Positions 36,193-56,235 of a stretch of DNA of 64,000 bases are shown piece by piece (position 1 is the first letter of the stretch; each line of letters starts with the position of its first letter). The stretch covers positions 1,338-65,337 of the forward strand of contig JAVBPM010000027.1 in NCBI GenBank assembly GCA_031549605.1, given 5' to 3'. Position numbers and translations under genes: made by a program. Below the pieces are notes generated by a model. That model saw nothing but the letters and a program-made list of their open reading frames with translations. It ran no database searches and was not told the DNA's origin. Origin of the DNA: Oscillospiraceae bacterium (GTDB lineage: Bacteria > Bacillota > Clostridia > Oscillospirales > UBA929).

Positions 36193-36564
36193 TCACGTCC
36201 ACAGGCCGACGTCAAGGCAGCTTTTTTTGAGATGCTCCAGCGCCTTTTTCTCCAGCCGTGACACATAGCTGCGGCTGATGTTCAGTTCCTTGGCCACCTC
36301 GCGCTGCGTGCGCGGCTTGACGTTGTCCAGCCCATAACGCAGCGTAACAATCTCCAGCTCGCGACCGCATAGCAGCTGCTTAACCAGCGCATTCAGCTTT
36401 TGCTCGCGGTCAGTTTCTTCCACGCGTGCCAAATTGAAATCCTCCACGCTGATGGTGTTGCCGATTGGCAGCATGCCGCTGTCGTCCTCACTGTTAAAGC
36501 TCTCCTCAAAGGAGGTCAACTTAGGCGCGTGCGCCTCCTTGCGAAACTGCATGCGGAACTCATT
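36193..36564 (-). CDS. sigK: sigma-K gene, 3' segment (spoIIIC-like; regions 3-4)
   Basis: From codon AAT (36564-36562): NEFRMQFRKEAH...ELEIVTLRYGL...TQREVAKELNISRSYVSRLEKKALEHL, a sigma-70 region 4.2 HTH. The upstream part of the track ORF is an out-of-frame read of the recombinase gene. Confidence 0.85.
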   Translation of the reverse strand, partial: NEFRMQFRKEAHAPKLTSFEESFNSEDDSGMLPIGNTISVEDFNLARVEETDREQKLNALVKQLLCGRELEIVTLRYGLDNVKPRTQREVAKELNISRSYVSRLEKKALEHLKKSCLDVGLWT

Positions 36565-36573
36565 TGCAACCCT
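36555..36573. other. left attachment junction of the sigK intervening element (core TTT 36563-36565)
   Basis: SigK similarity ends at codon 36564-62. Aligning the two junctions gives G-N-AAA-N-G on the minus strand, with AAA shared. Confidence 0.6.
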
Positions 36574-38296
36574 CTCGCTGCGGCTCGTTTTCGACCTGTT
36601 GGGCAGTCGCGCCAATCGCTTGCAGCTCGGGTAATTCAATGTCGCCTTCCTGTGAGCCGAACAGGTAGACATGGGCGTTTTCGCCATCCCAGATGACTTT
36701 GCGGATAAAGGTGCGCAGCGCCGAGCGTTTTTCCTCAACACTCATGGTCTCAAGAGCTCCGGCAAAGGTGGACAGCAGGTCGCGTAGCAGGTCAAATTCG
36801 ATGTCGGACAGCTCGTGTTCCTTGGTCAGACTTTCGAGTTCAGTCAGATGCTGGGTGGTGTCGCGGTTCTGCTGTTGGAGCTGTTCGATTTCGGCGAGAA
36901 TGCGGGTGCTAACGGCGTCGTTGTCGGTTTTAGACAGTGTTGTCACCAACGTATCAATTTGCTTTTCGGTTTCCTTGATGTCTTTACGTAGTGCCGTTAG
37001 CTGGTTATCATAATCGCTGGTGTCACCGAGTATGGTCTTCTTGGCCTGTTCAAGTTGTTGAATAAAGGTGGAGCTGTCAAAGGACAACTTTTTGATTTCT
37101 TCGCAGACCAGCTTATCCAGCTGATTGCCGTTTGGGTTCTTGATGTCGCAGTTTTGACAACGGCTTTTTTCCTTGGTCTCGCAGAGATAGCTGTAGACAA
37201 GTTCGCCATCCTTGTTGGCACGGGTGGTCAACTTGGGTCGCAGGAAGTCACCGCAACGGGCGCAGAACAACAGACCCGACAGCAGCGCCACATTACTCTT
37301 GGGCTTGCGGTAGGATTTGGATTTGTTTTGGTCAAGCAGCTTCTGCGCCGCAATCCAGTCGCTGCTGCTAATCATCGGCGTATGCTTGCCAACGGCAACA
37401 ATCCACTCAACTGCCGGACGTTCTTCATGTGATTTGCCTGTCGACTGCACCGTCTTGTTGTAGACCATCATACCATGCTTGCCGTCAAAGTCTTTATCGT
37501 CGGCATATATCTCCATCTGCTTGGCTTGAAAGTAGCTCAACGCTTTGACATCAGCGGTCAGATAGACAGGATTTTGCAGAATGCTCTTAATGGCAAAGCG
37601 TGTAATGCGTTTGCCATTCTTTGTTTTGCTATGGTTTTGCTCAAAGAAGGTTTCGGTTTTAGTCAGTGACTTGGTTTCAAGGAATTTGCCAAAAATGAGT
37701 TCGATAAGAGCTGCTTCCTCTTTCACAAGGTCGAGCTTGTATGAACGGCGTTTTTTATCGTCAATTGTAATGGTATCAACAGGCACACTTTGATAGCCGG
37801 TGGGCGCAACGCCACCCAGCCAGCGCCCTGTTTTGGCCAGCTGCACCATGTTGTCGCGGATACGCTCGGCAATGGTCTCCCGTTCAAGCTGTGAAAACAC
37901 AGAGGCAATCATAATCATGGCGCGGCCTGTTGGTGTGCTGGTGTCGAATTTCTCCTTGAGAGAATGAAACTTTACATCGTAACGGTCAAGGTCGGCCATC
38001 AGATGGGCAAAGTCACCGATGTTGCGGCTGATACGGTCAAGCCGGTAGCAGACCACGGCATCAATCTGATTGCTGTGAATGGCTTGGAGCAAGGCTTGAA
38101 ACTGCGGACGCTCGGTGTTCTTTCCCGAATACCCTTCGTCCTCGTAGACGACAACACTGTCAAATGCGTCAGCGGCTATGTTTTGCTTGATGTACTGTTG
38201 ACACATTTCAATCTGATTTTCAATGCTCTCGCCCTTGCCGGTAAATCGCGATTTACGCGAGTAGATAGCAATGTTCCGTTTTAGTTCTTTCGGCAT
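36560..38296 (-). CDS. large serine recombinase (SpoIVCA-like)
   Basis: Start at ATG 38296 (MPKELKRNIAIYSRKSRFTGKGESIENQ; catalytic Ser in YSRKS; VVCYRLDRISRN). Also a recombinase domain, the zinc ribbon CARCGDFL...CQNCD, and a coiled coil. The stop TGA (36562-36560) lies in sigK DNA. Confidence 0.9.
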   Translation of the reverse strand: MPKELKRNIAIYSRKSRFTGKGESIENQIEMCQQYIKQNIAADAFDSVVVYEDEGYSGKNTERPQFQALLQAIHSNQIDAVVCYRLDRISRNIGDFAHLMADLDRYDVKFHSLKEKFDTSTPTGRAMIMIASVFSQLERETIAERIRDNMVQLAKTGRWLGGVAPTGYQSVPVDTITIDDKKRRSYKLDLVKEEAALIELIFGKFLETKSLTKTETFFEQNHSKTKNGKRITRFAIKSILQNPVYLTADVKALSYFQAKQMEIYADDKDFDGKHGMMVYNKTVQSTGKSHEERPAVEWIVAVGKHTPMISSSDWIAAQKLLDQNKSKSYRKPKSNVALLSGLLFCARCGDFLRPKLTTRANKDGELVYSYLCETKEKSRCQNCDIKNPNGNQLDKLVCEEIKKLSFDSSTFIQQLEQAKKTILGDTSDYDNQLTALRKDIKETEKQIDTLVTTLSKTDNDAVSTRILAEIEQLQQQNRDTTQHLTELESLTKEHELSDIEFDLLRDLLSTFAGALETMSVEEKRSALRTFIRKVIWDGENAHVYLFGSQEGDIELPELQAIGATAQQVENEPQREGCK

Positions 38297-38389
38297 TTCA
38301 TTCACCCTTGTCCAATGTGATGTATTAAGCTTAACACTATCGTTACGGCTTGACAAGGGTATTATATAGGAAAACAAGCGAATTCGCAA

Positions 38390-43482: not shown

Positions 43483-44181
43483 CTATAATGCTCGACGGAG
43501 CGAGAGTGCGTCTGAGAAGCGTTCTTCGGGGCTGGGTTGTACGCAGCGACGGATAATTTTTCCCAGCCGTCCGCGCGCACGCTGCTTGCTGTAATGCTCA
43601 CCGGTTAACATGACATTCATCAGCATGCCCAGCGCATATATGTCCGTCCGCTCGTCGGACTCCTTAAAACCGTATTGTTCCGGCGCAGCATATCCGGCCG
43701 TGCCAAGTAGCTGTGTATCCTTGCTTTGCGCTGGCTTCACCAGTCGACAGGCGTTGAAGTCAATCAGCTTAGTCATGCCGTTACAATCAACCATTACGTT
43801 CTCAGGTTTAATGTCTCGGTGGACGATACCCAGCGAGTGCAGCGCGGACAATGCATCGCAAAGCTGCTTGGACACCTGTCGTGTGCCCCGCTCGGTGTAG
43901 TGGCCCGTCTCCAGCACTTGGGCAACGGTACAGCCGTCTATGTATTCCTCCAGCACGGTAACGATGTTTTCACGCTGCACAACTTCGTAGATGCGCGGCA
44001 GGTGCGGGTGTGTGACGTTCAGTAAATGCCGATAGACTTCAGCGCTGCCCGTGAAGGTGCGCTTGACGATTGGCCAATGCAGCGTCTTGTGGCGAAGTAG
44101 CAGCACTTGAGACGAAGGCGTCTGCTTCAATGCCGTCACAAGCGTATATTGTTTATCTAAGGCGTCATTTAGCCAGTCCAT
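43483..44181 (-). CDS. stand-alone Ser/Thr protein kinase domain protein
   Basis: Start ATG 44181. Hanks motifs HRDIKPENVMV, DFN (DFG-like) and GTAGYAAPE. No sensor or TM region. Confidence 0.8.
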   Translation of the reverse strand: MDWLNDALDKQYTLVTALKQTPSSQVLLLRHKTLHWPIVKRTFTGSAEVYRHLLNVTHPHLPRIYEVVQRENIVTVLEEYIDGCTVAQVLETGHYTERGTRQVSKQLCDALSALHSLGIVHRDIKPENVMVDCNGMTKLIDFNACRLVKPAQSKDTQLLGTAGYAAPEQYGFKESDERTDIYALGMLMNVMLTGEHYSKQRARGRLGKIIRRCVQPSPEERFSDALSLRRAL

Positions 44182-44236
44182 CTTTTCACCCACTGTCGAT
44201 TCATGGTATACTGACATCATACTAGGAGGCGATGTA

Positions 44237-44659
44237 ATGGTCAAGAAGTCAACCGACGATTTGCTGGCAGAGTTGCAGGGGCAAAAACCGCTGGAGGCGT
44301 ACATCGCCGACAACCAGGACGCTTTCTATTCGAAGCAGCTGGCGCAAGTGCTGTGTCAGTTGGTGGAGGAAAAGCAGACAACCAAATATGAGGTCATCAA
44401 ACGTGCTGAGCTGACCGAGGTGTATGGCTATCAAATCTTTGCCGGGAAGCGGCTACCCTCGCGGGATAAGTTGCTCTGTTTGTGCATAGGGCTGGGTCTG
44501 TCAGTCGACGAAACCCAGCAACTGCTGAAGCAGGTGGGCATGGCGCCGTTGTATGCAAAGCTGAAGCGGGATAGTATTATTCTGTATGAGGTTGGCCACG
44601 GGCAGAATGTGGTGGCGATTAATGAGCGGTTGTATCTTGAAAATGAATTAACGTTATAA
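44237..44659 (+). CDS. HTH-domain protein (XRE-like)
   Basis: 140 aa. The segment KRAELTEVYGYQIFAGKRLPSRDKLLCLCIGLGLSVDETQQLL matches a common clostridial HTH family. Divergent from the kinase gene. Confidence 0.55.
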   Translation: MVKKSTDDLLAELQGQKPLEAYIADNQDAFYSKQLAQVLCQLVEEKQTTKYEVIKRAELTEVYGYQIFAGKRLPSRDKLLCLCIGLGLSVDETQQLLKQVGMAPLYAKLKRDSIILYEVGHGQNVVAINERLYLENELTL

Positions 44660-45593: not shown

Positions 45594-45770
45594 ATGGAAA
45601 ACGTTTATTTCTACGATGCAAAGCGCAACTGCGTAATTCCGCAGGTCATTAATCTTGGGGATCTGGGGGAGGATGAAAACCTATGGAAGTGGTTGAGGAT
45701 GGAAAGTGAGGCAATTATCAAGAGAGGCAGCAATGATAGTAATTGTCAGGGTGATTGCCATGAGGCGTGA
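45594..45770 (+). CDS. small hypothetical protein (58 aa)
   Basis: AGGAGG RBS before ATG 45594. Occupies the position of a cro/early gene. Confidence 0.35.
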   Translation: MENVYFYDAKRNCVIPQVINLGDLGEDENLWKWLRMESEAIIKRGSNDSNCQGDCHEA

Positions 45771-47133
45771 GACGTATCAGGATAATCCTGCAGTTTATGT
45801 CACAAAGGATGGGCGGGTTGTAGTTCTGCCACAAGAACGATACAAGCAGATAAAACAGGAGTACGACATCCGCAAATCGGACAAGGCGAACATCTGGGTC
45901 TATGAGAAATCGGGCGTTCATAGACTATATAGCGCATATGAAATGATGGCACTGATAAAAAGTACATTACCAGTAGAGTATCGCAGTGCCCATGATTGGA
46001 AAGCGGTTTACGATGAGTTGTTGACCGACAGGGCAAATGTCTCTGAAAGTGACTTCAATAATGATGAAAATATCGTCAATTTCCGAAACGGGGTTTTGGA
46101 CATTAGCACAGGGCAACTGTCACCCCATAACCCCAAGTACTTATCAACGATTCAGATTCCGTGCAATTACATACCATCCTCAACGTTGCAGGATTGCGCG
46201 ACTTTTAGCGCGTTTCTTGATCATCTCTGCGCCACTGATTGCGTGACAATTACTTTTTTGTTGGAGTTTTTAGGCGCAATTATTTCCAATGCAAAAGGAT
46301 GGCGTTTTAAGAAGATGCTACTGCTAGTCGGGGCAGGAAACACAGGGAAATCGGTTTTCCGAGAATTGGCAATGCATCTTGTGGGTTTGGAAAATTGTGT
46401 TTCTATTGATTTGAAGAAGCTTAATGAACGGTTTGGTACATCGGCACTGTACGGAAAACGTCTTGCTGGTAGTGGAGATATGGCATTTGTTGAATTGCCC
46501 GAGGTCAACATTTTAAAACAGTTGACAGGCGGAGATGAGTTGTTTGCAGAGTACAAGGGAAAAGATAGCTTTACGTTTCGATATGACGGGTTTATTTTTT
46601 GCAACTGCAATAAACTGCCTTACTTTCGATCCGACAGAGGAGCTCATGTTTACGAGCGGTTCTTAGTCGTTTGCTGTTCCAATGTAGTACCAGCGGAAGA
46701 GCGTGATCCCAAACTGCTTGACAAGCTTTTGGCTGAGAAAGACGCTATTGTGAGTGTGGCGATCAAAGAGTTTATGTCTGTCATTCAAAACGGGTACAGG
46801 TTTACCGAAAGTGAGGCTATGCAGATTGGCCGCGACTCGTATGAAATTGAGAACAACAGTCTTTTAACGTTTGTAAATGAGTGCTGCGAGCGGGGAGATA
46901 GTGTCATTAAGCGGTCAGAGTTTGGTAGGTATTACGCTAAATGGTGCAAAGCAAATTTTGTGCAAGCTGAACGGGCACGAGACATCGAACCACAGTTAGT
47001 GAGATTCTTTGGCATACAGTCGCATAAGCGAAATGGATACTATGTCTTCACTGGACTGGAAATTCGGATTGAAGTCGTTGATGAACTTGACGATGTGATG
47101 TATCCGGACAGTACGCGAAATCGTCGTAAATAG
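45733..47133 (+). CDS. phage/plasmid primase, P4-family (D5-like SF3 helicase C-terminal domain)
   Basis: Walker A LLLVGAGNTGKSVF and Walker B-like FIFCNCNKLP. Start at ATG 45733 (AGAGAGG RBS) preferred over 45706. Confidence 0.7.
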   Translation: MIVIVRVIAMRRETYQDNPAVYVTKDGRVVVLPQERYKQIKQEYDIRKSDKANIWVYEKSGVHRLYSAYEMMALIKSTLPVEYRSAHDWKAVYDELLTDRANVSESDFNNDENIVNFRNGVLDISTGQLSPHNPKYLSTIQIPCNYIPSSTLQDCATFSAFLDHLCATDCVTITFLLEFLGAIISNAKGWRFKKMLLLVGAGNTGKSVFRELAMHLVGLENCVSIDLKKLNERFGTSALYGKRLAGSGDMAFVELPEVNILKQLTGGDELFAEYKGKDSFTFRYDGFIFCNCNKLPYFRSDRGAHVYERFLVVCCSNVVPAEERDPKLLDKLLAEKDAIVSVAIKEFMSVIQNGYRFTESEAMQIGRDSYEIENNSLLTFVNECCERGDSVIKRSEFGRYYAKWCKANFVQAERARDIEPQLVRFFGIQSHKRNGYYVFTGLEIRIEVVDELDDVMYPDSTRNRRK

Positions 47134-47515: not shown

Positions 47516-47560
47516 AAGTGGGTGTAATACTAAGCTGACAGCTTAGTATTACACCCACTT
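47516..47560. repeat. perfect 22-bp-arm palindrome/hairpin
   Basis: aagtgggtgtaatactaagctg-a-cagcttagtattacacccactt. Sits at the left edge of the AT-rich island. Confidence 0.9.
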
Positions 47561-47618: not shown

Positions 47619-47647
47619 TTTTCATACCGAAATACATCGTATATAAT
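47619..47647 (+). promoter_or_regulatory. candidate outward promoter facing IR-L
   Basis: TTTTCA-17 nt-TATAAT, 76 nt upstream of IR-L. Confidence 0.35.
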
Positions 47648-47722
47648 AAATGGTAATTAGGTTACAGTTCTATGTGCAAAAGGGCTTGTAATTCTGGCAG
47701 TGCAAAATGAAGATTTAAAAGT

Positions 47723-47780
47723 CAATGCAGGATAATACCAGATTATCTATTGTTTACAGGTCAAATAATTTGTAATTATC
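47723..47780 (+). repeat. 58-bp inverted repeat, left copy (IR-L)
   Basis: caatgcaggataataccagattatctattgtttacaggtcaaataatttgtaattatc. Its reverse complement equals 52819-52876 exactly (58/58, checked base by base). Confidence 0.95.
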
Positions 47781-47795
47781 CTTATAAAAGAGAGG

Positions 47796-49475
47796 ATGTT
47801 AAGTTTGATATCACTTGGAATTAACATTGGACATGATCAGGGTGCCGCAGTTGTAAAAGACGGCATTTTGGTTGGGGCAATCGCTCAAGAAAGACTAAAT
47901 AGAGTAAAGCATTCTGCTTCAACAACATTGCCATTTATAGCTATAGATAATCTACTAGATTACTTGGAAATAGGTATTAACGAAGTAGATTGCATTGGGT
48001 TCTCTTCTACTGCTGTTAATATCAATGAATTAAATTCTTATGTTGCTGATAGTCTTACAAACTACTATGATATTAATGATCCACATATCATTCCTGTATC
48101 ACATCATCAAGCTCATGCAGAAAGTGCTTACTTTACTTCAAATTTTGATGAAGCAATAACGCTTATTGCTGATGGTGGCGGTGAAATGTTAGGCGTAAAG
48201 GAAGAAGCAGAAAGCATATTTTACTGCAGAAACGCAGAGGTTACATTAATGGAACAACGTTTGCAAAGTAATAATGTACATGCTTTTGCTCGTCCGCACA
48301 ATTATTTAATCCCGTTTATGAACAAAAAACAATTTAGTGAACAAATTAGCCTTGGTAAAAAATATGAACAGGTAACTAGTTTGCTATCTTTTGGCGCAAA
48401 TGGTGCTGGAAAGACGATGGGCCTTTCAGCCTATGGGAAAAGTTTAATTAGTACAAATGCAGTTCCTGTAACCGATCCATTGGCTTTCAATCTTGATTTT
48501 CAAGATATTTTGCAACCATATTATTCATTGTACGAGCATTCTGGGGAGAATTACTTTGATTTCATGAAAAAGCATCAAGCAGATATAGCGAGGACCTTAC
48601 AAGATTATACAGAAAATCAAGTATTAGAAATCATTGAATACATACTGTCAAAGTACAAAGTATCACAAATCTGTTTAGCCGGAGGGCTGTTTCTCAACTG
48701 TCCTATTAATCACAAAATTTTAGAAAAGTATCCACAAGTGTCATTGCATATCTGTCCTGCTGCAGGTGATGATGGACAGGCAATGGGAACTGCATTAGCA
48801 GCGTATAGAACAGTCTCTTCAGATCTATATCCGAATTCATCCTGCCTACCGTATCTTGGTATAAGTTATACAAATGCTCAAATAGAGCAAGCTATAAAAT
48901 CGCGAGGACTACATTATCACTATTATGATGATGTAAGTATTGCGAGTCTTGTAGCAGAAAAAATATATAATAACAAAATAATCGGATTTTTGCATGGGAG
49001 AAGTGAAATTGGACCAAGGTCATTGTGCCATAGGAGCATACTTGCTAATCCAACTGTACCAAATATGAAAGACTATATCAATGCAAAAGTAAAGCACAGA
49101 GAAAATTTTCGTCCATTTGCACCAGTGGTTGCTGCAGAAAAACAATTTGAATACTTTTCTTTATTACAAGAGTCGCCGTATATGCTCTTGGCAACTACTG
49201 TAAAAGATAAATTTGTAGAACAATTACCTGCAATAACCCACGTGGATGGAACTGCGAGAATTCAATCGGTTAAAGCCGAAGATGATCCATTTGTACACCG
49301 AATACTTATTGAATTTGAAAAACTCTCTGGATTTCCAGTATTACTAAATACTTCATTTAACGATTGTGGAGAGCCTATTGTAGAAACACCAAGTGATGCA
49401 ATAAAAACTTTTCTGACTACAGAAATAGATATTCTTGTTATGGAAAATTATATATTATTTAAAGATGAACAATAA
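47796..49475 (+). CDS. NodU/CmcH/TobZ-family carbamoyltransferase
   Basis: Motifs GINIGHDQGAA, HHQAHAESAYF, ICLAGGLFLNCPINHKI, FRPFAPVV, HVDGTARIQSV and LNTSFNDCGEPIV. The true start may be TTG 47805, because the SD AGAGAGGA abuts ATG 47796. Confidence 0.85.
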   Translation: MLSLISLGINIGHDQGAAVVKDGILVGAIAQERLNRVKHSASTTLPFIAIDNLLDYLEIGINEVDCIGFSSTAVNINELNSYVADSLTNYYDINDPHIIPVSHHQAHAESAYFTSNFDEAITLIADGGGEMLGVKEEAESIFYCRNAEVTLMEQRLQSNNVHAFARPHNYLIPFMNKKQFSEQISLGKKYEQVTSLLSFGANGAGKTMGLSAYGKSLISTNAVPVTDPLAFNLDFQDILQPYYSLYEHSGENYFDFMKKHQADIARTLQDYTENQVLEIIEYILSKYKVSQICLAGGLFLNCPINHKILEKYPQVSLHICPAAGDDGQAMGTALAAYRTVSSDLYPNSSCLPYLGISYTNAQIEQAIKSRGLHYHYYDDVSIASLVAEKIYNNKIIGFLHGRSEIGPRSLCHRSILANPTVPNMKDYINAKVKHRENFRPFAPVVAAEKQFEYFSLLQESPYMLLATTVKDKFVEQLPAITHVDGTARIQSVKAEDDPFVHRILIEFEKLSGFPVLLNTSFNDCGEPIVETPSDAIKTFLTTEIDILVMENYILFKDEQ

Positions 49476-49477
49476 AT

Positions 49478-52400
49478 TTACACACCAAAGGGTATATAAA
49501 AATCGGTAAAAGTATCGCGAACCGAGTATAGAATATCTTTACCTACAAATAACAATCTACCTTTTTTAACTGATTCATAGTTTTTCTTAAATACGTCTAT
49601 ATTTCGCTGGCAAGAGTAGAAGCAAGATTTGTTTTTATCACACTTGAAATCACAAGTCCCATTACTTCCGTAGTATTTAATTTCACTTAGGAACTGATAA
49701 ACTTCACTTTCCAATCCATATTCGCATAGAAAAATAGCATAATTTGTAAGCAAAATAATATTGTTATAAGTAAAATCAAGTGCTCCAAGAAAAAATTGAT
49801 CACACTGTCTCATATGATGAAGCATGGTCTGAAAGTATTTATAAATTGTTTCTGATGATGAACCGTCGCTGGCAGCGATTATTGCACGAAGGCAATATAA
49901 TGACGGCATCATTTTAGCTATCCCGTTTTGTATACTGTCGGATATTCCAGCGTCTATGTGCTTTTTTGCTTGTTCTCTTTCCTCAGTACTGTTTCCAATA
50001 TAATAAATCGCAGCTAAGAGGTAATGACTACGGATAATAGCTATCGGGTACTCTACTTCCATGGCTAATTCAAGAAGTCTTTGCCCTTCATTTTTAAAAT
50101 AATTTAGTTTATCAAATTTAGTAGAATCATTAACTATGTTTGCTGTTAAAATACCAAGATCATTGTGACAACTAATTCTTGGTGATACATCTGATGAAAG
50201 AAGCGCTTTTGCTTCATTCATCAAGGCAAGAGCCTCTTGAAAATCTCTATAAAATCTTATTTTAGCTGATAATATTTTACTTAATGTCAATAACTTTGCA
50301 TCTTGCAACCGTTCAGCAATCTTGTATGAAAGCTGATTATAAAGCATCGCTAATTCCTTATGGTTTTCTTGTATATACACGCTAGAGATCCGGTCAAAAA
50401 GATCAAAACGTGTTTCATCATTAAAAAGAGCTTCATCTTTACGCTCTTGTGCAAGAAGTTCCAACAATAGTTTTTTTGCTTGTGATATACGGTCTGATTG
50501 CATAAACAGATGTGCTTGCATTTGCATAGCTGTTAGATGTAATGGCATATCATTTGCATGATGTTCTTTTATTATTTCTAGTATCTTCTCTATGACAATA
50601 CCACCACGGGCAACAGATAAGCTGTGTAAAGCGATATACATACTAGCTAATAATGTGTTTCTTTGAAGATTCAAGTTATTATTTTTAGAAGCAATTTCAT
50701 AAATAGTCTCGTATGTTTCAAAATATTTAGGAGTTAAATTGCATGAAGAAATATTTTTTATGTTGCTAATTTCAGTAATGGCTATTTGTAATAAACTCTC
50801 GCTTCTGTGAAAGTCGCCAACATGAAAATAAATTACTGCTTTTTGTAAATCAGAATACTGCTCTAATAATTCATTGCAAGAAACAAGGAAATCAGCTACT
50901 TTCTCAATTGTATTTTTAGATTTAAGAATTTCTCTTATAAACAAGAAAATATTTTCATGATCAAAAGTGATGTTATCATTATGAGTTATCTTGAGAAAGT
51001 GCCTTTTGTATAAAATATTAATGGTTTCAAAATTCTCATCCCCAAAATACAAATTATAAATTCGTTTGGGAGCTTCAATTCCATATAAACCGAGTAAAAG
51101 CAAAAATAATTGCAAATCTGTTCCGTTTGTCAAATCTGCAATGTTATCAAATCTTGCTCTTATTAAGTCCTGAACAGAAGAAGGGATGTATAATTTCTTC
51201 GCAAAAGTTGTTACATTAGTTATTCCCACTGCATTTCTGTTCATCAAATACATTAATTTTGTCTCCAACATATATTCTATAAATTGGCACACATAAAATG
51301 GATTGTTTTCAGATGCTTTATGAATCTTATTTATTACATATTCAGGTGCTTCGATAATTATTGACCGAATCATATTTTTACACTCAACATCAGTTAACTT
51401 TTTAATTTTATAGTTATTAATATTTTCGTTTTTCTCGTTTTCTAGCCATGATAAATAAGTAAAATAACTCTGATTGTAAACGCTATAGTCGTCCCGACCT
51501 GCAGTAATAATAATAAAAGGAGTATAGAAATTACTTGTCGAGAATTTCTTCAACAATGAAAAAAGGCTTTTATCTGCATTATGTATATCCTCAATAACAA
51601 TAGCATATCGGTTAAAATGCATTGGAATATTCGTTAAATCTATTAGAGCTCTTAATTTGTATTGCGGGATGCTATCAGCAATATAAGAATTAAGCAGTTC
51701 TTCGGTAGATTTTGTCTCATGTTCCGTGCATATAAAGTGAAATATCTTAATTCCACTTTGAGAAATTTTTTTACTCGCTTCATCTAATATTCTTGTTTTT
51801 CCAATTCCGGCTTCTCCACGAAGGTTAATCATGTGGAAATTAGTATTATTTTGCCCCCTTGAAACAATACTACTTATTATTTCTTTGTGATAAGTGCCTA
51901 CAAGAGGTGTTTCAAAATCATAATCAACAAAACGACCATTGATTATAATTTTTTTTAAATTTTCATTCAGCATAACATCAACTAAAATATCATCAATACC
52001 ATCAAAATATTCTTTTGTTACTCCGATACATTTGCAAATGCTATTGCCAGCATCTAGAAAAACTTCAAACTGTGTTTCAGATAATAGCCAGTTTCGATCA
52101 GATTTAAGTTGGAATTTGCATATTTGGGGATTTTCCGAATAATTGCGAAAACGCAAATATAATTCTAAATATGGCAAACCATTTCTCTTGCCGTGATTAA
52201 GTTGATAATCAGCCGATAGTTCAAAATGTTCTAGAGGCAAAGCATAATTTCCGAAAAGGGCATTATGAAAATCTAAAAACTTTGCTAAAATAAATTGGTC
52301 TACTAGAAAAAATTCATATCCATTTTCTATTGCATTATGGTTGGCTTCGTAATGCGAAAATGGAACGATGGTTTGATTGGTAATTAAAATGAAATAATCA

Positions 52401-52744
52401 ATTCCGCTATGATTTGCAAGAAGTATATTCTTTGAAAACTTGTCAAGACCAATTTTATTATTATTTGAGCTTTTAAATTCTATGTAAATGCAAATACTGC
52501 TTTTACCCTTTAAATCAAACTTTTTGCCAAAAAGAGAAAAAGGTACTATTGATCTAATAATTAAATCCTTACCACTATCCCTTGTGCGAGGGGTTCGTTC
52601 AATTTTTAATTCTTTTTCATAATATTCAGCTAACGAATACTCAATCACTGATGACACATGCTCTTCAAATTCAAAGCCAGACATATTTAGGTCCCACTTT
52701 TGACTATTAATATTCGGCGTAATATAATTAACGCTACCTAGCAT
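49478..52744 (-). CDS. Mrr-like nuclease / STAND P-loop NTPase / TPR-like repeat protein (Avs-like architecture)
   Basis: GAGGGAG RBS. Residues ~20-160 carry a PD-(D/E)xK pattern (GFEFEEHV, DSGKDLII, IYIEFKS, GIDYFILITN). Walker A GEAGIGKT (residues 310-317) and Walker B AIVIEDIH. About 650 aa of helical repeats, then a C-terminal Cys cluster. Confidence 0.8.
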   Translation of the reverse strand: MLGSVNYITPNINSQKWDLNMSGFEFEEHVSSVIEYSLAEYYEKELKIERTPRTRDSGKDLIIRSIVPFSLFGKKFDLKGKSSICIYIEFKSSNNNKIGLDKFSKNILLANHSGIDYFILITNQTIVPFSHYEANHNAIENGYEFFLVDQFILAKFLDFHNALFGNYALPLEHFELSADYQLNHGKRNGLPYLELYLRFRNYSENPQICKFQLKSDRNWLLSETQFEVFLDAGNSICKCIGVTKEYFDGIDDILVDVMLNENLKKIIINGRFVDYDFETPLVGTYHKEIISSIVSRGQNNTNFHMINLRGEAGIGKTRILDEASKKISQSGIKIFHFICTEHETKSTEELLNSYIADSIPQYKLRALIDLTNIPMHFNRYAIVIEDIHNADKSLFSLLKKFSTSNFYTPFIIITAGRDDYSVYNQSYFTYLSWLENEKNENINNYKIKKLTDVECKNMIRSIIIEAPEYVINKIHKASENNPFYVCQFIEYMLETKLMYLMNRNAVGITNVTTFAKKLYIPSSVQDLIRARFDNIADLTNGTDLQLFLLLLGLYGIEAPKRIYNLYFGDENFETINILYKRHFLKITHNDNITFDHENIFLFIREILKSKNTIEKVADFLVSCNELLEQYSDLQKAVIYFHVGDFHRSESLLQIAITEISNIKNISSCNLTPKYFETYETIYEIASKNNNLNLQRNTLLASMYIALHSLSVARGGIVIEKILEIIKEHHANDMPLHLTAMQMQAHLFMQSDRISQAKKLLLELLAQERKDEALFNDETRFDLFDRISSVYIQENHKELAMLYNQLSYKIAERLQDAKLLTLSKILSAKIRFYRDFQEALALMNEAKALLSSDVSPRISCHNDLGILTANIVNDSTKFDKLNYFKNEGQRLLELAMEVEYPIAIIRSHYLLAAIYYIGNSTEEREQAKKHIDAGISDSIQNGIAKMMPSLYCLRAIIAASDGSSSETIYKYFQTMLHHMRQCDQFFLGALDFTYNNIILLTNYAIFLCEYGLESEVYQFLSEIKYYGSNGTCDFKCDKNKSCFYSCQRNIDVFKKNYESVKKGRLLFVGKDILYSVRDTFTDFYIPFGV

Positions 52745-52818
52745 ATAACTCCCTCTTTTTACATTAGTTGCAATAAACAGTTATCCATTATTTACTGTTT
52801 TTTCAATGATAAACAATA

Positions 52819-52876
52819 GATAATTACAAATTATTTGACCTGTAAACAATAGATAATCTGGTATTATCCTGCATTG
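52819..52876 (-). repeat. 58-bp inverted repeat, right copy (IR-R)
   Basis: Exact reverse complement of 47723-47780. Lies 75 bp upstream of the 1088-aa gene start and 44 bp from the recombinase stop. Confidence 0.95.
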
Positions 52877-52920
52877 GCTTAAACGTGAATAGTGACCCCA
52901 TGAATGAGGCCACTACTATT

Positions 52921-53841
52921 TTAAATAACTATTCGATTTCTAGGATGCTTTGTGTCTAATATCTCTTTTTGCTTTTTTAAACTCACATGTGTATATATCT
53001 GTGTCGTGGTAATCGAGCTATGTCCCAGAATTTGTTGTATATACCTGATATCAACACCTTCATCCAGTAATAGAGTTGCAAAAGAATGTCTAAACATATG
53101 TGGGGTTATATTAAGTGCAATTCCAGCTTGATTCGCATACTTTCGTATCATAAACCGTACAGATTGCTCAGATAGCCTGTTATTACAGCGGTTTAAATAA
53201 AATTGCTTTGCATTATTAACGTCTTTTTCTTCTCGAACTATACCATAATTATCTAACGCAGATAAAACCTCATCATTGCCAATTCTGATAATTCTCTCTT
53301 TCGCACCCTTTCCATAGATACAGGCGGTTTTTTCGTGGAAATTAATATCGCAACAATTTAATGAGCACAGCTCGGAAACACGCATGCCCGTTGCAAAGAG
53401 CAGTTCAAGAACGGCAATGTTACGAATTGTCATTCTCTTTTTATAATCTGTAGAACTGATTGACAATTCTGTATATGCGCATCTAAGGATGGCCTCAACA
53501 TCGGTCAATGATATAGTTCGTGGTAAAATCTTAGGCTCCTGAAACTTAGTTCTAACTTTAGCAAAATGGTCTTCATCAATTATATTTTCAAACTGTAAAT
53601 AATTAAAAAAAGCCTTTAGCGAAGCAATTTTGCGTTTAGCGCTTTTAGGCTTGTATTTTGTATGTAATGTAACAATATATGCATTAAGCACTTCTTTCAT
53701 TGAGCTGCTTTCGGACAGTTTTGCGTGCTGCCTAAATTGTTCAAGATCAATTCGGTATGCTTTAATTGTGGGCGCACTCAACTTCTTTTGATTTGCGCAA
53801 AAAGAAAGATAAGGACGGATTAACGATTCAGTAATTATCAC
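52921..53841 (-). CDS. tyrosine site-specific recombinase (XerC/XerD-like)
   Basis: GTG start after GGGGG. Core-binding N-terminal domain (APTIKAYRIDLEQF). Catalytic ATGMRVSEL, HMFRHSFAT and LGHSSITTTQIYTHV (R..HxxR..Y). Confidence 0.85.
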   Translation of the reverse strand: MIITESLIRPYLSFCANQKKLSAPTIKAYRIDLEQFRQHAKLSESSSMKEVLNAYIVTLHTKYKPKSAKRKIASLKAFFNYLQFENIIDEDHFAKVRTKFQEPKILPRTISLTDVEAILRCAYTELSISSTDYKKRMTIRNIAVLELLFATGMRVSELCSLNCCDINFHEKTACIYGKGAKERIIRIGNDEVLSALDNYGIVREEKDVNNAKQFYLNRCNNRLSEQSVRFMIRKYANQAGIALNITPHMFRHSFATLLLDEGVDIRYIQQILGHSSITTTQIYTHVSLKKQKEILDTKHPRNRIVI

Positions 53842-53975
53842 TTAAAAAACCCCCATAAGTATTTTCTGAACCATTATGGAGGAGTTGTCGCATTTTGTCG
53901 ATCACTTACAACTTGAGATTGCGGCATGCCATCCCGAGCGTCGTATGATTCCTCTTTAGGAAAGTCCTACCGCAC

Positions 53976-54004: not shown

Positions 54005-54072
54005 AGACATGTTAAATATAAAAAATGCAGAAATTATTACGTTATCTTCTACGTAAAAACGGGAGGTGTCAC

Positions 54073-55374
54073 TTGAAACGCATATTAAGCGACCAGCTAT
54101 TGTCTTGGAAAACGCAGAGCGACCGAAAACCGCTTATTCTAAAAGGCGTACGTCAGTGCGGTAAAACGTATTTGCTCAAGGAGTTTGGTGAGGCGCACTA
54201 CGACGACGTTGCCTACTTTAATTTTGAGGGCAACGACGCCTTGCAAGCGCGGTTTGATGTTGATTTGGATGTTGACCGAATCATTGCTGAACTGGGTATC
54301 CTGCGACGCAAAGCCATCGAGCCGGATAAAACGCTGATTATCTTTGATGAGATTCAGTTTTGTAACCGTGCTTTGACGGCGTTGAAATACTTCTGCGAGA
54401 ACGCGCCACAGTTTCATATTGTCTGTGCCGGGTCTCTTTTGGGCGTGGCGCTTAGTAAGCCGTTGTCATTTCCCGTGGGTAAGGTTGATTTTCTCACATT
54501 GCGGCCGATGAACTTCTATGAGTTTTTGCTGGCAAACGGCGAAGATTTACTGTGTGATTATTTGAACAAGCTAACCACCGGCGAAAAGGTGTCGGCATTG
54601 TTTGCCGAAAAGCTGGAGCAGTTGCTTCGGACGTATTATATCACTGGCGGTATGCCGGAGGCCGTGGATATATGGCTAAAGACGCGTGACATCGGCAAGC
54701 TGGAGGAGGTGCAGCAACGCATCCTTGACAGTTATGAGTTGGACTTTGCTAAGCACGCACCGAGTAAAGACTTCCCGAAACTGTCGGCGATTTGGCGGTC
54801 AATTCCTGAACAATTGGCCAAAGAGAACAGCAAGTTTATTTTCAGTCAGGTCAAGAAAGGCCTCCGCGCCAAAGACTTAGAGGATGCCTTGGAGTGGCTT
54901 CTGAGTGCCGGACTGGCCTTTAAGGTTATGAAAATTGAAAAGCCATTTTTGCCGCTGTCTGCCTATGCTGACGCGACGTTCTTTAAGCTCTACATGTCTG
55001 ACGTGGGCTTGCTTCGAAAGATGTCAAAGCTACCTGCAGAGGCGTTACTGGCGAAGAGTGAGCTATACACTGAGTTCAAGGGCGCATTGGCTGAGAATTA
55101 TGTGCTGACTGAGTTGGTCAACTTGCAGGGCGACACGCCGTATTACTGGAAATCGGGAAATATAGCCGAGGTCGATTTTGTCGTTCAGCAGGACATGGAC
55201 ATCATTCCTATTGAGGTCAAATCCGAGCGGAACGAACGCGCGCGGTCGCTGTCGGAGTATCGGAAAAAGTATAACCCACGTGTGGCGGTGATTACGTCGA
55301 TGAGTAATGTGTCTGGCGGCGAGGTTAGGAATGTGCCGTTGTATATGTTGTGGAGGTTGGTGGCGTATGTATAG
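54073..55374 (+). CDS. AAA-family ATPase with DUF4143-type C-terminal domain
   Basis: TTG 54073, 6 nt after GGGAGG, gives the family-typical N-terminus (L)KRILSDQLLSWKTQSDRKPLILKGVRQCGKTY (Walker A). Walker B LIIFDEIQ. Confidence 0.7.
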   Translation: MKRILSDQLLSWKTQSDRKPLILKGVRQCGKTYLLKEFGEAHYDDVAYFNFEGNDALQARFDVDLDVDRIIAELGILRRKAIEPDKTLIIFDEIQFCNRALTALKYFCENAPQFHIVCAGSLLGVALSKPLSFPVGKVDFLTLRPMNFYEFLLANGEDLLCDYLNKLTTGEKVSALFAEKLEQLLRTYYITGGMPEAVDIWLKTRDIGKLEEVQQRILDSYELDFAKHAPSKDFPKLSAIWRSIPEQLAKENSKFIFSQVKKGLRAKDLEDALEWLLSAGLAFKVMKIEKPFLPLSAYADATFFKLYMSDVGLLRKMSKLPAEALLAKSELYTEFKGALAENYVLTELVNLQGDTPYYWKSGNIAEVDFVVQQDMDIIPIEVKSERNERARSLSEYRKKYNPRVAVITSMSNVSGGEVRNVPLYMLWRLVAYV

Positions 55375-55449: not shown

Positions 55450-56235
55450 GTGATACGATACAGTAAATGCAAAGAAGCAAGGAAAACAATCGAAGATGTA
55501 TATAATCATCCAGAGAAATATTTAATTATCCATTATTCATGTGAGAGCTTTATGGACAAGCCTGATGGCGGGACACCAAGGATAACCTCAATTGCGGTAA
55601 GATTTTGTAGCACTTCACAGACAAAGTCTTTTTCAATACATAAAATTGCAGAGCAAAAGCATATGGATTGGAATAAACTTCAAGATAATTACGATATTTG
55701 TGAAAGAGAAATGTTGAAGGATTTCTTTAAATTTGTGAGGGAACACAAAACTTTTGTATGGTTACATTGGAACATGAGAGATGAAAATTACGGGTTTTAT
55801 GCCCTTGAAAACAGGTTTAAGGTTCTTGGTGGAACACCAATTTGTGTTGAGGACAACAGTAAAATAGATATCGCAAGATTATTTGTTAAACGATACGGGA
55901 AATACTATATTCAAAATCCGAAAATTGTCAATTTAGTTCAAAAGAACGGTATGTCACACATGGATTTCTTAACAGGACAAGAAGAGGCAGACGCCTTCGT
56001 AAATAGAGAATACATCAAACTTCACAAATCAACATTGAGAAAAGTTGACCTGTTTTCAAATATGCTGATTGCATCTGCAGAGAAGACACTAAAAACCAAT
56101 GCAAAATGGAAAGATATGTATGGTGTTTCCCCTCAGGGGTTGTACCAGGCTGCAAAAGATAATATATGGTATAATATAGCAGTAGGTGTTGTTGTTTTGC
56201 TTCTTGGTGCTATGCTGGGGCAATTATATAACTGA
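55450..56235 (+). CDS. hypothetical protein with a C-terminal TM anchor (261 aa)
   Basis: GTG start after GGGGGA. Soluble ~225-aa domain with no motif I recognise. C-terminal helix YNIAVGVVVLLLGAMLGQLY. Confidence 0.45.
   Translation: MIRYSKCKEARKTIEDVYNHPEKYLIIHYSCESFMDKPDGGTPRITSIAVRFCSTSQTKSFSIHKIAEQKHMDWNKLQDNYDICEREMLKDFFKFVREHKTFVWLHWNMRDENYGFYALENRFKVLGGTPICVEDNSKIDIARLFVKRYGKYYIQNPKIVNLVQKNGMSHMDFLTGQEEADAFVNREYIKLHKSTLRKVDLFSNMLIASAEKTLKTNAKWKDMYGVSPQGLYQAAKDNIWYNIAVGVVVLLLGAMLGQLYN

What the first reader, a model, noticed from the sequence alone, without database searches (positions are those of the whole stretch)
47723..53841. IR-bounded carbamoyltransferase + Mrr-nuclease/STAND/TPR gene pair next to a tyrosine recombinase: candidate undescribed defence module
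**Seen in the sequence.**
- One gene (47796/47805-49475, +) is an unmistakable NodU/CmcH/TobZ-type carbamoyltransferase.
- The other (52744-49478, -) encodes 1088 aa. It has an N-terminal PD-(D/E)xK Mrr-like pattern, a P-loop (GEAGIGKT / AIVIEDIH) and ~650 aa of TPR-like helical repeats.
- The two genes converge with 2 bp between their stops.
- Each gene is preceded by the same 58-bp sequence.
- A XerC/D-like recombinase starts 44 bp outside the right repeat.
- The block is far more AT-rich than its host element.

**Inference.**
- Effector-NTPase-sensor is the architecture of Avs/AVAST antiviral STAND proteins.
- I know of no described defence system in which such a protein is paired with a carbamoyltransferase.
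- That enzyme family makes carbamoyl-adenylate intermediates, so it could generate or modify a nucleotide or nucleic-acid ligand.
Basis: partly seen in the sequence, partly recalled or inferred. Interest (0 to 1): 0.9.

Follow-up and report, generated by a model that had tools for sequence, protein, structure and literature searches.

The report
Flip switch: immune sensor or carbamoyltransferase
The two genes sit on a 5.1-kb DNA segment that the neighbouring recombinase flips end-for-end, so a fixed outside promoter probably drives either an NLR/Avs-like nuclease sensor or a sugar-type carbamoyltransferase; this conserved either/or switch appears to be undescribed.

Summary
In detail: a TobZ/NodU-type carbamoyltransferase (CT) and a 1088-aa nuclease-STAND-TPR protein (ST) converge with 2 bp between their stops, are bounded by 62-nt inverted repeats (IRs), and lie beside a XerD-like recombinase.

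The IRs are not just shared upstream sequence. They carry a 17-18-nt recombination core, GATAA(T/C)-N5-(A/G)TTATC.

In about 50 related loci the same ST/CT pair is flanked by the same core. Eight lineages show both orientations of the cassette between flanks that are at least 99% identical (95.6% for one outer piece).

The core usually lies only 5-35 nt before each ATG. One flank often carries a near-consensus promoter abutting the core.

The best reading is a Mu-G-segment-like switch that expresses CT or ST alternately.

ST resembles Avs3/Avs4 in structure but matches no PADLOC model.

More distant ST relatives use the same switch opposite other sugar- or cyclitol-tailoring operons.

The idea that the two genes act together is weakened.

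Inversion in the family is shown. Alternate expression and antiviral function are inferred.

The parts
47619..47647 (+). Predicted sigma-70-type promoter (TTTTCA-17-TATAAT) on the flank away from the recombinase. It faces the cassette and, in this orientation, CT.
   Evidence: One search gives 10 of 12 matches. The opposite flank scores 8. This is a consensus match only. A score of 10 or more occurs in 14% of random 150-nt windows.
47719..47780 (.). Left inverted-repeat arm (62 nt).
   Evidence: pair I1: 98% complementary to 52819-52880.
47730..47747 (+). Left recombination core, GGATAAT-ACCAG-ATTATC. It has two inverted half-sites and an asymmetric 5-nt spacer.
   Evidence: 0.02 matches expected by chance. 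The same core architecture is found at the cassette boundaries of all related loci examined.
47764..47781 (-). Second, degenerate core-like palindrome (GGATAATTACAAATTATT) inside the IR. It may be an accessory binding site.
   Evidence: 1 mismatch. On the ST side it is followed by the repeated ATTATCTATTGTTTA (pair I22). Its function was not tested.
47796..49475 (+). O-carbamoyltransferase (CT) of the NodU/CmcH/TobZ family. The likely start is TTG at 47805.
   Evidence: Pfam. PDB sequence search hits GdmN, TobZ and NovN at about 1e-62 to 1e-65. Catalytic motifs are invariant in 18 family members.
49478..52744 (-). ST: an Avs-like protein.
- PD-(D/E)xK (Mrr-like) nuclease, about aa 1-165.
- Beta-sandwich, about aa 176-268.
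- STAND P-loop NTPase with a winged helix.
- Alpha-solenoid (TPR-like), about aa 610-1020.
- C-terminal Cys4 cluster.
52819..52880 (.). Right inverted-repeat arm (62 nt).
   Evidence: pair I1.
52852..52869 (-). Right recombination core. Its sequence and spacer are identical to the left core, in inverted orientation.
52921..53841 (-). XerD-like tyrosine recombinase, the presumed invertase. It reads toward the cassette, with its stop 40 nt outside the IR. R, HxxR, H and Y motifs are visible in the sequence (ATGMR, HMFRHS, LGHSS, IYTHV).
   Evidence: Orthologues at 46-56% identity lie next to the cassette in about half of the related loci, including most of those with flanks longer than about 2 kb.
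53873..53901 (-). Predicted promoter of the recombinase gene (TCGACA-17-CATAAT).
   Evidence: 10 of 12 matches. Consensus match only.

Best explanation
Window 47719-52880 is a programmed-inversion gene-swap switch.

**Proposed mechanism.**
1. The XerD-like tyrosine recombinase at 52921-53841 pairs the two inverted cores (GGATAAT-ACCAG-ATTATC). It exchanges strands in the asymmetric spacer and flips the 5.1-kb cassette.
2. The two cassette genes point inward. They have little or no promoter space between core and ATG, and no terminator between their stops.
3. A promoter fixed outside one core (here probably 47619-47647) therefore transcribes whichever gene faces it.
4. That transcript then runs antisense through the other gene.
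5. In the window's present orientation CT faces that promoter, and ST lies downstream of the recombinase gene.
6. A clonal population would thus split into a CT phase and an ST phase.

**Likely roles of the two products.**
- ST is most likely an Avs-like antiviral sensor-nuclease.
- CT most likely O-carbamoylates a sugar-like acceptor, such as a surface glycan or a nucleotide/cyclitol-type small molecule.

**Shown or inferred.**
- Shown: the IRs, cores and recombinase; conservation of the whole architecture; both orientations in nature, in relatives.
- Inferred: that this particular copy flips; orientation-dependent and mutually exclusive expression; the antiviral role of ST; the CT substrate.
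For: **Inversion.**
- The same cassette lies in opposite orientation between flanks and cassettes that are about 98-100% identical (95.6% for one outer flank piece).
- Six pairs show this directly by blastn: L033/L034, L050/L049, L062/L063, L072/L079, L092/L093 and L077/L088.
- In the P0019/P0125 lineage each of two flanks is joined to ST in one record and to CT in another.
- L073 is a further lineage, seen in the configuration opposite to L072.

**Recombination site.**
- Every locus has the half-sites GATAA(T/C) and (A/G)TTATC.
- At least 16 different 5-nt spacers occur across lineages, and the spacer is always identical in the two copies within a locus.

**Recombinase.**
- A recombinase 46-56% identical to the window's is adjacent in 32 of about 65 related loci, including most with flanks longer than about 2 kb.
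- It is found upstream of ST in some loci and upstream of CT in others.

**Assembly signature.**
- About 25 of 74 ST clusters have a longest contig of 5.0-5.4 kb, which is the cassette length.
- At least 15 contig ends fall on an IR.

**Expression logic.**
- The core is 5-35 nt from the ATG in many lineages.
- In L001 the IR includes the RBS and ATG of both genes.
- In L099 the core's terminal ATG is itself the start codon.
- In 7 lineages a promoter scoring 10 or more ends within 25 nt of one core and never both. The null rate is 0.034 per flank, so about 1.2 are expected in about 34 flanks.
- The stops are 2 bp apart or overlapping, and no terminator is predicted between them.

**Proteins.**
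Against: - Only one contig carries the window's own copy, so inversion of this copy is not observed.
- No transcript data are available, and the promoter calls are consensus matches in AT-rich DNA.
- In the window the best flank promoter lies 83 nt from the core and scores only 10 of 12. That score occurs by chance in 14% of windows.
- In the window, 74 nt separate the IR from the ST start. This could hold a promoter of its own.
- In many lineages the recombinase gene abuts the other core with no terminator. Read-through could give low expression of the second gene, so a ratio switch is possible rather than strict ON/OFF.
- Strict co-inheritance and co-divergence of ST and CT suggest a functional coupling that simple bet-hedging does not explain.
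- ST matches no PADLOC model, and no phage phenotype is known.
Confidence: 0.68

Rival explanations
1. Cooperative two-gene defence system. CT and ST are expressed together from identical upstream sequences, and CT makes or modifies a ligand or substrate that ST senses or needs. Inversion would be incidental.
For: - Linkage is strict and the two genes co-diverge. ST identity to the window runs from 28% to 59% as CT runs from 47% to 72%.
- The upstream sequences are identical.
- ST is Avs-like.
- A candidate defence gene is adjacent.
- Recombinase read-through plus the far-flank promoter could express both genes.
Against: - The cores sit 5-35 nt from the ATGs, so the shared sequence is mostly a recombination site plus RBS rather than a promoter.
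- Both orientations are maintained in eight lineages.
- Convergent genes with overlapping stops and no terminator interfere with each other's transcription.
- The same switch pairs ST-like proteins with unrelated enzyme sets.
Confidence: 0.18
2. Write/read antagonistic pair. CT writes a carbamoyl mark on DNA, on nucleotides or on a phage-borne component. The Mrr-like ST reads that mark. The switch enforces mutual exclusion, so phage produced in CT-phase cells is marked and then destroyed in ST-phase siblings.
For: - Mrr-type domains are typical of modification-dependent nucleases (established knowledge of the family).
- A TobZ-family enzyme carbamoylates 5hmC in DNA (PMC8670742).
- The architecture is mutually exclusive.
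- The two genes co-diverge.
Against: - CT is only 25% identical to the 5hmC enzyme, no closer than it is to other family members.
- A cell switching from CT to ST would carry the mark on its own genome and be attacked.
- The other arms (DegT, radical-SAM, acetyltransferase, inositol-1-P synthase) look like sugar or cyclitol chemistry rather than DNA chemistry.
Confidence: 0.1
3. Mobile cassette. The IRs are the ends of a transposon-like or integron-like unit that the recombinase moves between genomes, and inversion is a by-product.
For: - The cassette occurs in unrelated contexts:
  - a serine-integrase element here;
  - ICEs;
  - a polysaccharide locus;
  - proteobacterial DNA.
- Its GC content is far below that of its host element.
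- L001 has a third, directly oriented site heading a truncated ST.
- L043 has an extra site.
Against: - The recombinase lies outside the repeats.
- Two inverted sites can only invert the segment, not excise it.
- There is no transposase inside the cassette.
- Flanks stay identical while only the orientation changes.
- This rival explains spread but not the conserved convergent design.
Confidence: 0.08

Closest known systems
Phage Mu G segment / Gin and P1 C segment / Cin (own knowledge)
   Same: - An invertible segment is bounded by short inverted recombination sites.
- The recombinase gene sits just outside the segment.
- Convergent alternative genes lie inside.
- Expression signals are fixed outside one end, so orientation selects which gene set is expressed.
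   Different: - Those systems use serine invertases with Fis-dependent enhancers. Here the enzyme is a XerD-like tyrosine recombinase.
- Their alternatives are paralogous tail-fibre variants. Here they are two unrelated proteins, an enzyme and an NLR-like sensor-nuclease.
- This cassette is chromosomal or ICE-borne and was not found on viral contigs.
Tyrosine-recombinase invertons of Type I R-M hsdS genes (S. pneumoniae cod/SpnD39III with PsrA/CreX; PMC4948785, PMC7096588, PMC7672463)
   Same: - An adjacent tyrosine recombinase, inverted repeats and phase-variable output.
- A defence-related locus.
- Found in host-associated Firmicutes.
   Different: - Those inversions shuffle target-recognition domains of one gene family and change specificity.
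- Here whole, unrelated genes are swapped behind a promoter.
Avs3/Avs4 (AVAST) antiviral STAND NTPases (PDB 8dgc, 8dgf)
   Same: - The same tripartite plan: N-terminal nuclease, STAND NTPase and a C-terminal helical-repeat sensor.
- Full-length Foldseek alignments at E 8.5e-9 and 2.5e-8.
- In the wider family the N-terminus is not matched by the ST profile in several distant relatives.
   Different: - No PADLOC model, AVAST models included, matches at E up to 0.01-0.1.
- The protein is shorter (1088 aa).
- It has an extra beta-sandwich domain and a C-terminal Cys4 cluster.
- Its trigger is unknown.
- It is embedded in an inversion switch, which has not been reported for Avs proteins.
TobZ / GdmN / NovN / NodU O-carbamoyltransferases, and the phage 5hmC carbamoyltransferase (PMC8670742)
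   Same: - Both Pfam domains are present.
- The metal- and nucleotide-binding motifs are conserved.
- The chemistry is presumably carbamoyl-AMP transfer to a hydroxyl group.
   Different: - The gene is not in an antibiotic, Nod-factor or phage hypermodification cluster.
- It is only 25% identical to the 5hmC enzyme.
- The acceptor is unknown.
- In some lineages the partner is a membrane-anchored PRTase-fold protein or a PfkB kinase.
RecV switches of C. difficile and promoter invertons of Bacteroides (PMC2784873, PMC7446863, PMC5903667)
   Same: - A tyrosine recombinase acts on short IRs to give ON/OFF heterogeneity in gut bacteria.
   Different: - Those systems flip a small promoter or 5'-UTR element of about 150-300 bp.
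- Here the promoter stays fixed and a 5-8 kb coding cassette flips.

Membership tests
Programmed site-specific DNA inversion switch | A pair of inverted recombination sites bounds the segment. | tested here: met
   - 62-nt IR, 98% complementary.
- A conserved 17-18-nt core with matching spacers in all relatives examined.
Programmed site-specific DNA inversion switch | A dedicated site-specific recombinase is encoded next to the segment. | tested here: met
   - Phage_integrase 4e-41.
- Orthologues lie next to the cassette in about half of the related loci, including most with long flanks.
Programmed site-specific DNA inversion switch | Both orientations occur between otherwise identical flanks. 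| tested here: met
   - Met for eight related lineages.
- Not testable for the window's own copy, which is known from a single contig.
Programmed site-specific DNA inversion switch | Orientation changes gene expression. | tested here: inconclusive
   - Geometry and promoter statistics favour it.
- No transcript data are available.
Avs / AVAST antiviral STAND proteins | Tripartite architecture: effector, STAND NTPase and helical-repeat sensor. | tested here: met
   - Pfam Mrr_cat and AAA_16.
- Invariant D-ExK and Walker A/B residues.
- AF2 model and Foldseek hits to 6mfv, 8dgc and 8dgf.
Avs / AVAST antiviral STAND proteins | Sequence match to the family's profile HMMs (PADLOC). | tested here: not met
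   No PADLOC hit for the window protein, and none to an AVAST model for three further homologues.
Avs / AVAST antiviral STAND proteins | Activation by a conserved phage protein, and protection against phage. | not testable with these tools
   Needs phage challenge and co-expression assays.
NodU/CmcH/TobZ O-carbamoyltransferases | Carbam_trans_N plus Carbam_trans_C domains above the curated cutoffs, with intact catalytic motifs. | tested here: met
   - 101.6 and 221.6 bits against cutoffs of 24 and 27.
- H10, D11, H100, H101, H104, D123 and D322 are invariant.
- PDB homologues at about 1e-62.
NodU (nodulation) equivalog | Score above the NCBIfam equivalog cutoff. | tested here: not met
   155.5 bits against a cutoff of 1000. 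The protein belongs to the family but is not NodU.
XerC/XerD chromosome-dimer resolvases | Score above the equivalog cutoffs. | tested here: not met
   - 251 and 243 bits against cutoffs of 329.6 and 335.
- The site is unlike dif (own knowledge).
- The protein is XerD-like but not XerD.
Mrr-type (Type IV) modification-dependent restriction | Mrr_cat PD-(D/E)xK core. | tested here: met
   - Borderline Pfam hit, 21.3 bits against a cutoff of 21.
- Invariant D56, D60, E89 and K91.
- PF04471 is precomputed for several homologues.
Mrr-type (Type IV) modification-dependent restriction | Cleavage depends on modified DNA. | not testable with these tools
   Needs biochemistry.
TIR-bounded transposon | A transposase is encoded between the terminal repeats. 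| tested here: not met
   Only CT and ST lie inside the repeats. The recombinase lies outside them.

The most novel reading that the evidence does not exclude
The switch enforces mutual exclusion because the two arms are antagonistic. The enzyme arm (CT here, DegT/radical-SAM/acetyltransferase elsewhere) writes a chemical mark that the NLR-like ST arm detects.

- The mark could be on DNA, on nucleotides or on a glycan carried by virions.
- A clonal population would then consist of 'markers' and 'readers'.
- Phage or mobile DNA leaving one phase would be recognised and destroyed in the other.

This would be population-level immunity built from a single invertible cassette.
Probability: 0.1. Interest if true: 0.95.

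Novelty: new variant of a known kind. Interest (0 to 1): 0.84.

Why it matters
Programmed inversions are known to vary surface structures, tail fibres and R-M specificities. They normally choose between paralogous variants of a single function.

Here a conserved cassette chooses between two unrelated functions:
- an NLR/Avs-like nuclease sensor;
- a sugar-tailoring enzyme or enzyme set.

The cassette is widespread. The ST family has 164 representative clusters at E up to 1e-30. It occurs in gut Firmicutes and in at least one locus with LuxI/LuxR-type neighbours (Proteobacteria inferred from those genes).

If the inferred expression logic holds, three things follow:
- It would be the first phase-variable STAND immune receptor.
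- It would be a clear case of anti-correlated deployment of two strategies within a clone.
- It offers a directly testable system, using orientation-locked strains, for asking why an innate immune sensor must not be co-expressed with a given modification enzyme.

It also flags a family that current defence-finder models miss.

There is a practical point as well. Assemblies routinely break at these repeats, so the module is fragmented in metagenome-assembled genomes.

Tried and rejected
- **PADLOC.** Searches of CT, ST, four further family members and the accessory proteins gave nothing meaningful.
- **ST profile against PDB sequences.** Only a weak NB-ARC hit to ZAR1, E = 0.004.
- **Genome-contig scan.** Using the whole ST alignment, it was swamped by the generic P-loop pattern and gave only 2 true loci. 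A C-terminal alignment solved this for the metagenome scan.
- **Phage or plasmid origin.**
  - CT has only cyanophage-type relatives at 33% identity or less in the phage collection.
  - ST has no match in plasmids.
  - ST has no relatives in viral contigs.
- **Relation to the phage 5hmC carbamoyltransferase.** Only 25% identity, no closer than to TobZ or GdmN.
- **RNA elements.** Rfam and tRNA scans of the region were empty.
- **Literature.** Six full-text searches found no description of a CT/STAND pair or of an invertible STAND cassette. The library lacks most subscription journals, so absence is not proof.
- **IR as transposon ends.** Rejected: there is no transposase inside, and flanks stay fixed while the orientation changes.
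- **Polysaccharide-locus context of L033 as a general rule.** Rejected, because other contexts are ICEs and unrelated genes.
Full report
**1. What is in the window**

- The CT ORF at 47796-49475 (+) carries both carbamoyltransferase domains: Carbam_trans_C at 6e-66 and Carbam_trans_N at 8e-29.
- CT is a clear homologue of the solved O-carbamoyltransferases GdmN, TobZ and NovN, at about 1e-62 to 1e-65.
- The 1088-aa ORF at 49478-52744 (-), called ST here, gives only weak Pfam hits: Mrr_cat at 3e-4 and AAA_16 at 5e-4.
- Three further results support the ST assignments.
  - In 22 homologues D56, D60, E89 and K91 are invariant. So are the Walker A motif (G310-K316), the Walker B residue D386 and a C-terminal cluster of four cysteines.
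  - An AlphaFold2 model has pLDDT 82.6. It shows an alpha/beta nuclease domain, a beta-sandwich, a P-loop NTPase with winged helix, and a roughly 400-residue alpha-solenoid.
  - Foldseek places the model next to a STAND-TPR protein (6mfv, 2e-12), Avs3 (8dgc, 8.5e-9), SAMD9, Avs4 (8dgf, 2.5e-8), plant NLRs and Apaf-1.
- The two stops are 2 bp apart.
- The inverted repeat is 62 nt and 98% complementary, with arms at 47719-47780 and 52819-52880.
- A XerD-like tyrosine recombinase (REC, 52921-53841, -) ends 40 bp outside the right arm and reads toward the cassette.
- GC content is about 30-36% in the block. It is 42-47% in the surrounding element, which carries a large serine recombinase, a D5-type primase and a Ser/Thr kinase. 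It is about 60% in the host.

**2. The pair is a conserved module**

- A search with ST found 74 clusters. A search with CT found thousands, but its closest hits share 'longest contig' sizes with the ST hits.
- A metagenome scan with a C-terminal ST alignment returned 50 loci.
- A tblastn survey showed the same convergent arrangement, ST followed by an oppositely oriented CT, in every locus long enough to show it apart from a few degraded copies.
- ST is 28-59% and CT 47-72% identical to the window proteins, and the two identities fall together across loci.
- Two CT hits chosen only for their long contigs (P0125, P0169) also turned out to sit opposite an ST gene or in the same cassette.

**3. 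The repeats are recombination sites and the cassette flips**

- Each IR contains a palindromic core, GGATAAT-ACCAG-ATTATC. The pattern gives 5 matches in the window against 0.02 expected.
- Every related locus has the same half-sites at both cassette ends: GATAA(T/C) and (A/G)TTATC. In many loci the IR is no more than this 17-26-nt core.
- The 5-nt spacer differs among lineages, with at least 16 variants. It is identical in the two copies within each locus.
- That pattern is expected if strand exchange by a tyrosine recombinase needs matching overlap regions. This last step rests on established knowledge of the enzyme family.
- The spacer is asymmetric and the copies are inverted, so recombination should invert the segment rather than delete it.
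- Inversion is seen directly. With the cassette aligned in the same sense (99.3-100% identity), the flanks align in the opposite sense at 98-100% identity, except for one outer piece at 95.6%. This holds for L033/L034, L050/L049, L062/L063, L072/L079, L092/L093 and L077/L088.
- A seventh lineage gives the same result through its junctions.
  - Both the recombinase flank and an HD-protein flank are joined to ST in some records (L029, L028).
  - The same flanks are joined to CT in others (L089/L090, L091).
  - Homology starts exactly at the core.
  - Within one genome assembly and within one metagenome sample the junctions are mutually consistent, and the two sources are in opposite states.
- L073 adds an eighth lineage. 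It is seen in the configuration opposite to the L072 lineage.
- REC orthologues at 46-56% identity lie next to the cassette in 32 of about 65 related loci, including most with flanks longer than about 2 kb. They sit upstream of ST in some loci and upstream of CT in others.
- Assemblies break at the repeats.
  - About 25 of the 74 ST clusters have a longest contig of 5.0-5.4 kb, which is the cassette length.
  - At least 15 contig ends fall on an IR, including SPAdes contigs whose k-mers probably exceed the IR length (the k-mer sizes were not checked).
  - The second point suggests mixed orientations within samples. This is an inference.

**4. Why orientation should matter**

- The core lies only 5-35 nt upstream of the ATG in many lineages, which leaves room for an RBS but not a promoter.
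- In L001 the 86-nt IR includes the RBS, the ATG and the first codons of both genes.
- In L099 the last three bases of the core are the start codon of one arm and are in frame with ST on the other side.
- In 7 independent lineages a promoter scoring at least 10 ends within 25 nt outside one core, and never outside both. Examples are TGTTATAAT, TGATATAAT and TTGAAA-17-TGATATAAT.
- The chance rate for such a promoter is 0.034 per flank. About 1.2 would be expected among about 34 flanks, giving a Poisson tail of about 2e-4.
- Some lineages place an intrinsic terminator between REC and the core (L072, L073 and L079; read directly from the sequences).
- The convergent genes have stops 2 bp apart or overlapping, and no terminator is predicted between them. 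The active transcript should therefore run antisense through the silent gene.
- In the window the better promoter match is TTTTCA-17-TATAAT at 47619-47647, on the flank away from REC. It lies downstream of a strong hairpin at 47516-47560 (-37 kcal/mol, z = -9.5).
- The sequenced copy is therefore probably in the CT-on state, with ST downstream of REC.
- This part is inference. The window promoter is not significant on its own, and REC read-through could give some ST expression.

**5. The wider family**

- A profile search of 1.8 billion representatives found 164 ST relatives at E up to 1e-30.
- Distant members (P0322, P0339, P0318) share the NTPase and solenoid. In P0322 and P0339 the profile match begins near position 275, so their N-termini are not covered.
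- These distant members sit in the same architecture.
  - The core is the same (GATAAC-TAGAA-ATTATC or GATAAC-TCTGG-ATTATG).
  - A REC gene lies close by.
  - Cassette-sized contigs occur.
- The opposing arm, however, is a DegT-type aminotransferase, a radical-SAM/SPASM enzyme and an Acetyltransf_6 protein, with or without myo-inositol-1-phosphate synthase.
- One of these loci has LuxI/LuxR neighbours and GC-rich DNA, which suggests a proteobacterium.
- Within the CT class, some lineages add a second gene to the CT arm.
  - One is a membrane-anchored protein with a phosphoribosyltransferase fold. It has no Pfam hit, and Foldseek matches OPRT/APRT at about 1e-6.
  - The other is a PfkB-family kinase.
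- The constant partner is thus the STAND protein. The variable partner is always sugar-, cyclitol- or nucleotide-tailoring chemistry.
- Carbamoyl-adenylate chemistry as such is not the point of the module.

**6. Mechanism and rivals**

- The best-supported model is a Mu-G-segment-like gene-swap switch. It is run by a dedicated tyrosine invertase and splits a clone into an 'enzyme' phase and a 'STAND' phase.
- My estimates for the individual steps are:
  - inversion in the family, about 0.95;
  - this copy being competent (intact cores, intact REC with R, HxxR, H and Y motifs), about 0.85;
  - orientation-dependent, largely exclusive expression, about 0.65;
  - ST being antiviral, about 0.5.
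- The CT acceptor is open. A surface glycan is the conservative guess, and a nucleotide- or cyclitol-type small molecule is an alternative.
Linkage and co-divergence are strict and REC read-through might express both genes, but the geometry argues against it.
- A write/read antagonism, in which CT marks and the Mrr-like ST reads, would explain why exclusion is enforced.
  - It is supported only by analogy, namely a TobZ-family 5hmC-DNA carbamoyltransferase (PMC8670742) that is just 25% identical to CT.
  - It also has a self-targeting problem at the moment of switching. I put it at about 0.1.
- A purely mobile-cassette reading explains the varied contexts and the extra sites (L001, L043). It does not explain the design. 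I put it at about 0.08.

**7. Comparison with what is known, and novelty**

- The switch logic matches Mu Gin/G and P1 Cin/C (own knowledge). The enzyme class matches the hsdS invertons and RecV-type switches (PMC4948785, PMC7096588, PMC7672463, PMC2784873).
- The protein architecture of ST matches Avs3/Avs4, but it fails the HMM membership test in PADLOC.
- Six full-text literature searches found no description of a CT/STAND pair or of an invertible STAND cassette. The library is incomplete.
- I rate it a new variant of a known kind. The mechanism of switching is familiar, but three things appear new:
  - a choice between two unrelated functions, one of them an NLR-like immune sensor;
  - conservation of this design across phyla;
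  - interchangeable enzyme arms.

**8. Limits**

- There are no expression data, phenotypes or biochemistry.
- The window's own copy is known from a single contig.
- Promoter calls are consensus matches in AT-rich DNA.
- Lineage counts come from metagenome contigs, whose strain relationships are inferred from identities of 99% or more.

Noticed in passing
window 54025-55374 (+): The gene immediately beyond the recombinase is a DUF4143/AAA_14 ATPase. It matches the PADLOC candidate defence family PDC-S01 at 1.4e-173. The cassette therefore sits in a defence-island-like stretch of the mobile element.
   Followed up: partly
window 47516-47560: A perfect 21-bp-stem hairpin (-37.4 kcal/mol, z = -9.5) lies between the D5-primase gene and the predicted far-flank promoter. 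It may be an insulating terminator. On the + strand it is not followed by a clean T-run.
   Followed up: partly
window ~36500-57300: A lower-GC (42-52%) mobile element lies in a host of about 60% GC. It carries:
- a large serine recombinase (36560-38389);
- several zinc-ribbon proteins;
- a Ser/Thr kinase (43483-44313);
- a D5_N/DUF5906 primase (45706-47133);
- HTH regulators.

Its ends and att sites were not mapped.
   Followed up: partly
window 55450-56235 (+): A 261-aa protein has only a weak DNA_pol_B_exo1 hit (1.2e-3) and a hydrophobic C-terminus. It has no PADLOC or NCBIfam match, and its function is unknown.
   Followed up: no
L001 12538-12625 and 11650-12546: A third, directly oriented copy of the 86-nt repeat heads a truncated ST remnant (first ~110 aa, then frameshifts and Ns) inside an ICE. 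This suggests past deletion or duplication events between sites.
   Followed up: partly
L028/L029/L089-L091 (P0019/P0125 lineage): In this mouse-gut lineage, IS elements (an IS256-type Transposase_mut and what looks like an IS3-type integrase-core remnant, read from the translation) are inserted between the ST and CT stops. This splits the cassette in assemblies, but both inversion states are still seen.
   Followed up: partly
ST residues 1028-1047 (window ~49600-49660): A nearly invariant cysteine cluster, C1031-x3-C1035-x5-C1041-x3-C1045, lies at the C-terminus. It may bind metal. The AF2 model has pLDDT below 50 there. Some distant subgroups match the profile only up to about position 1033.
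   Followed up: no
L099 7891-7907 and 14490-14506: In a GC-rich locus with LuxI/LuxR neighbours, the 17-nt core ends in ATG.
- That ATG is the start codon of the DegT arm and is in frame with the ST-like gene.
- The 'AG' just outside one core completes an AGGA Shine-Dalgarno-like motif on one flank only.
- This hints that translation signals are also split across the recombination site.
   Followed up: partly
window 52921-53841: The public annotation of this contig carries a 259-aa version of the recombinase, whereas the full ORF is 306 aa. An identical 306-aa protein exists on a separate 1.3-kb Logan contig.
   Followed up: no
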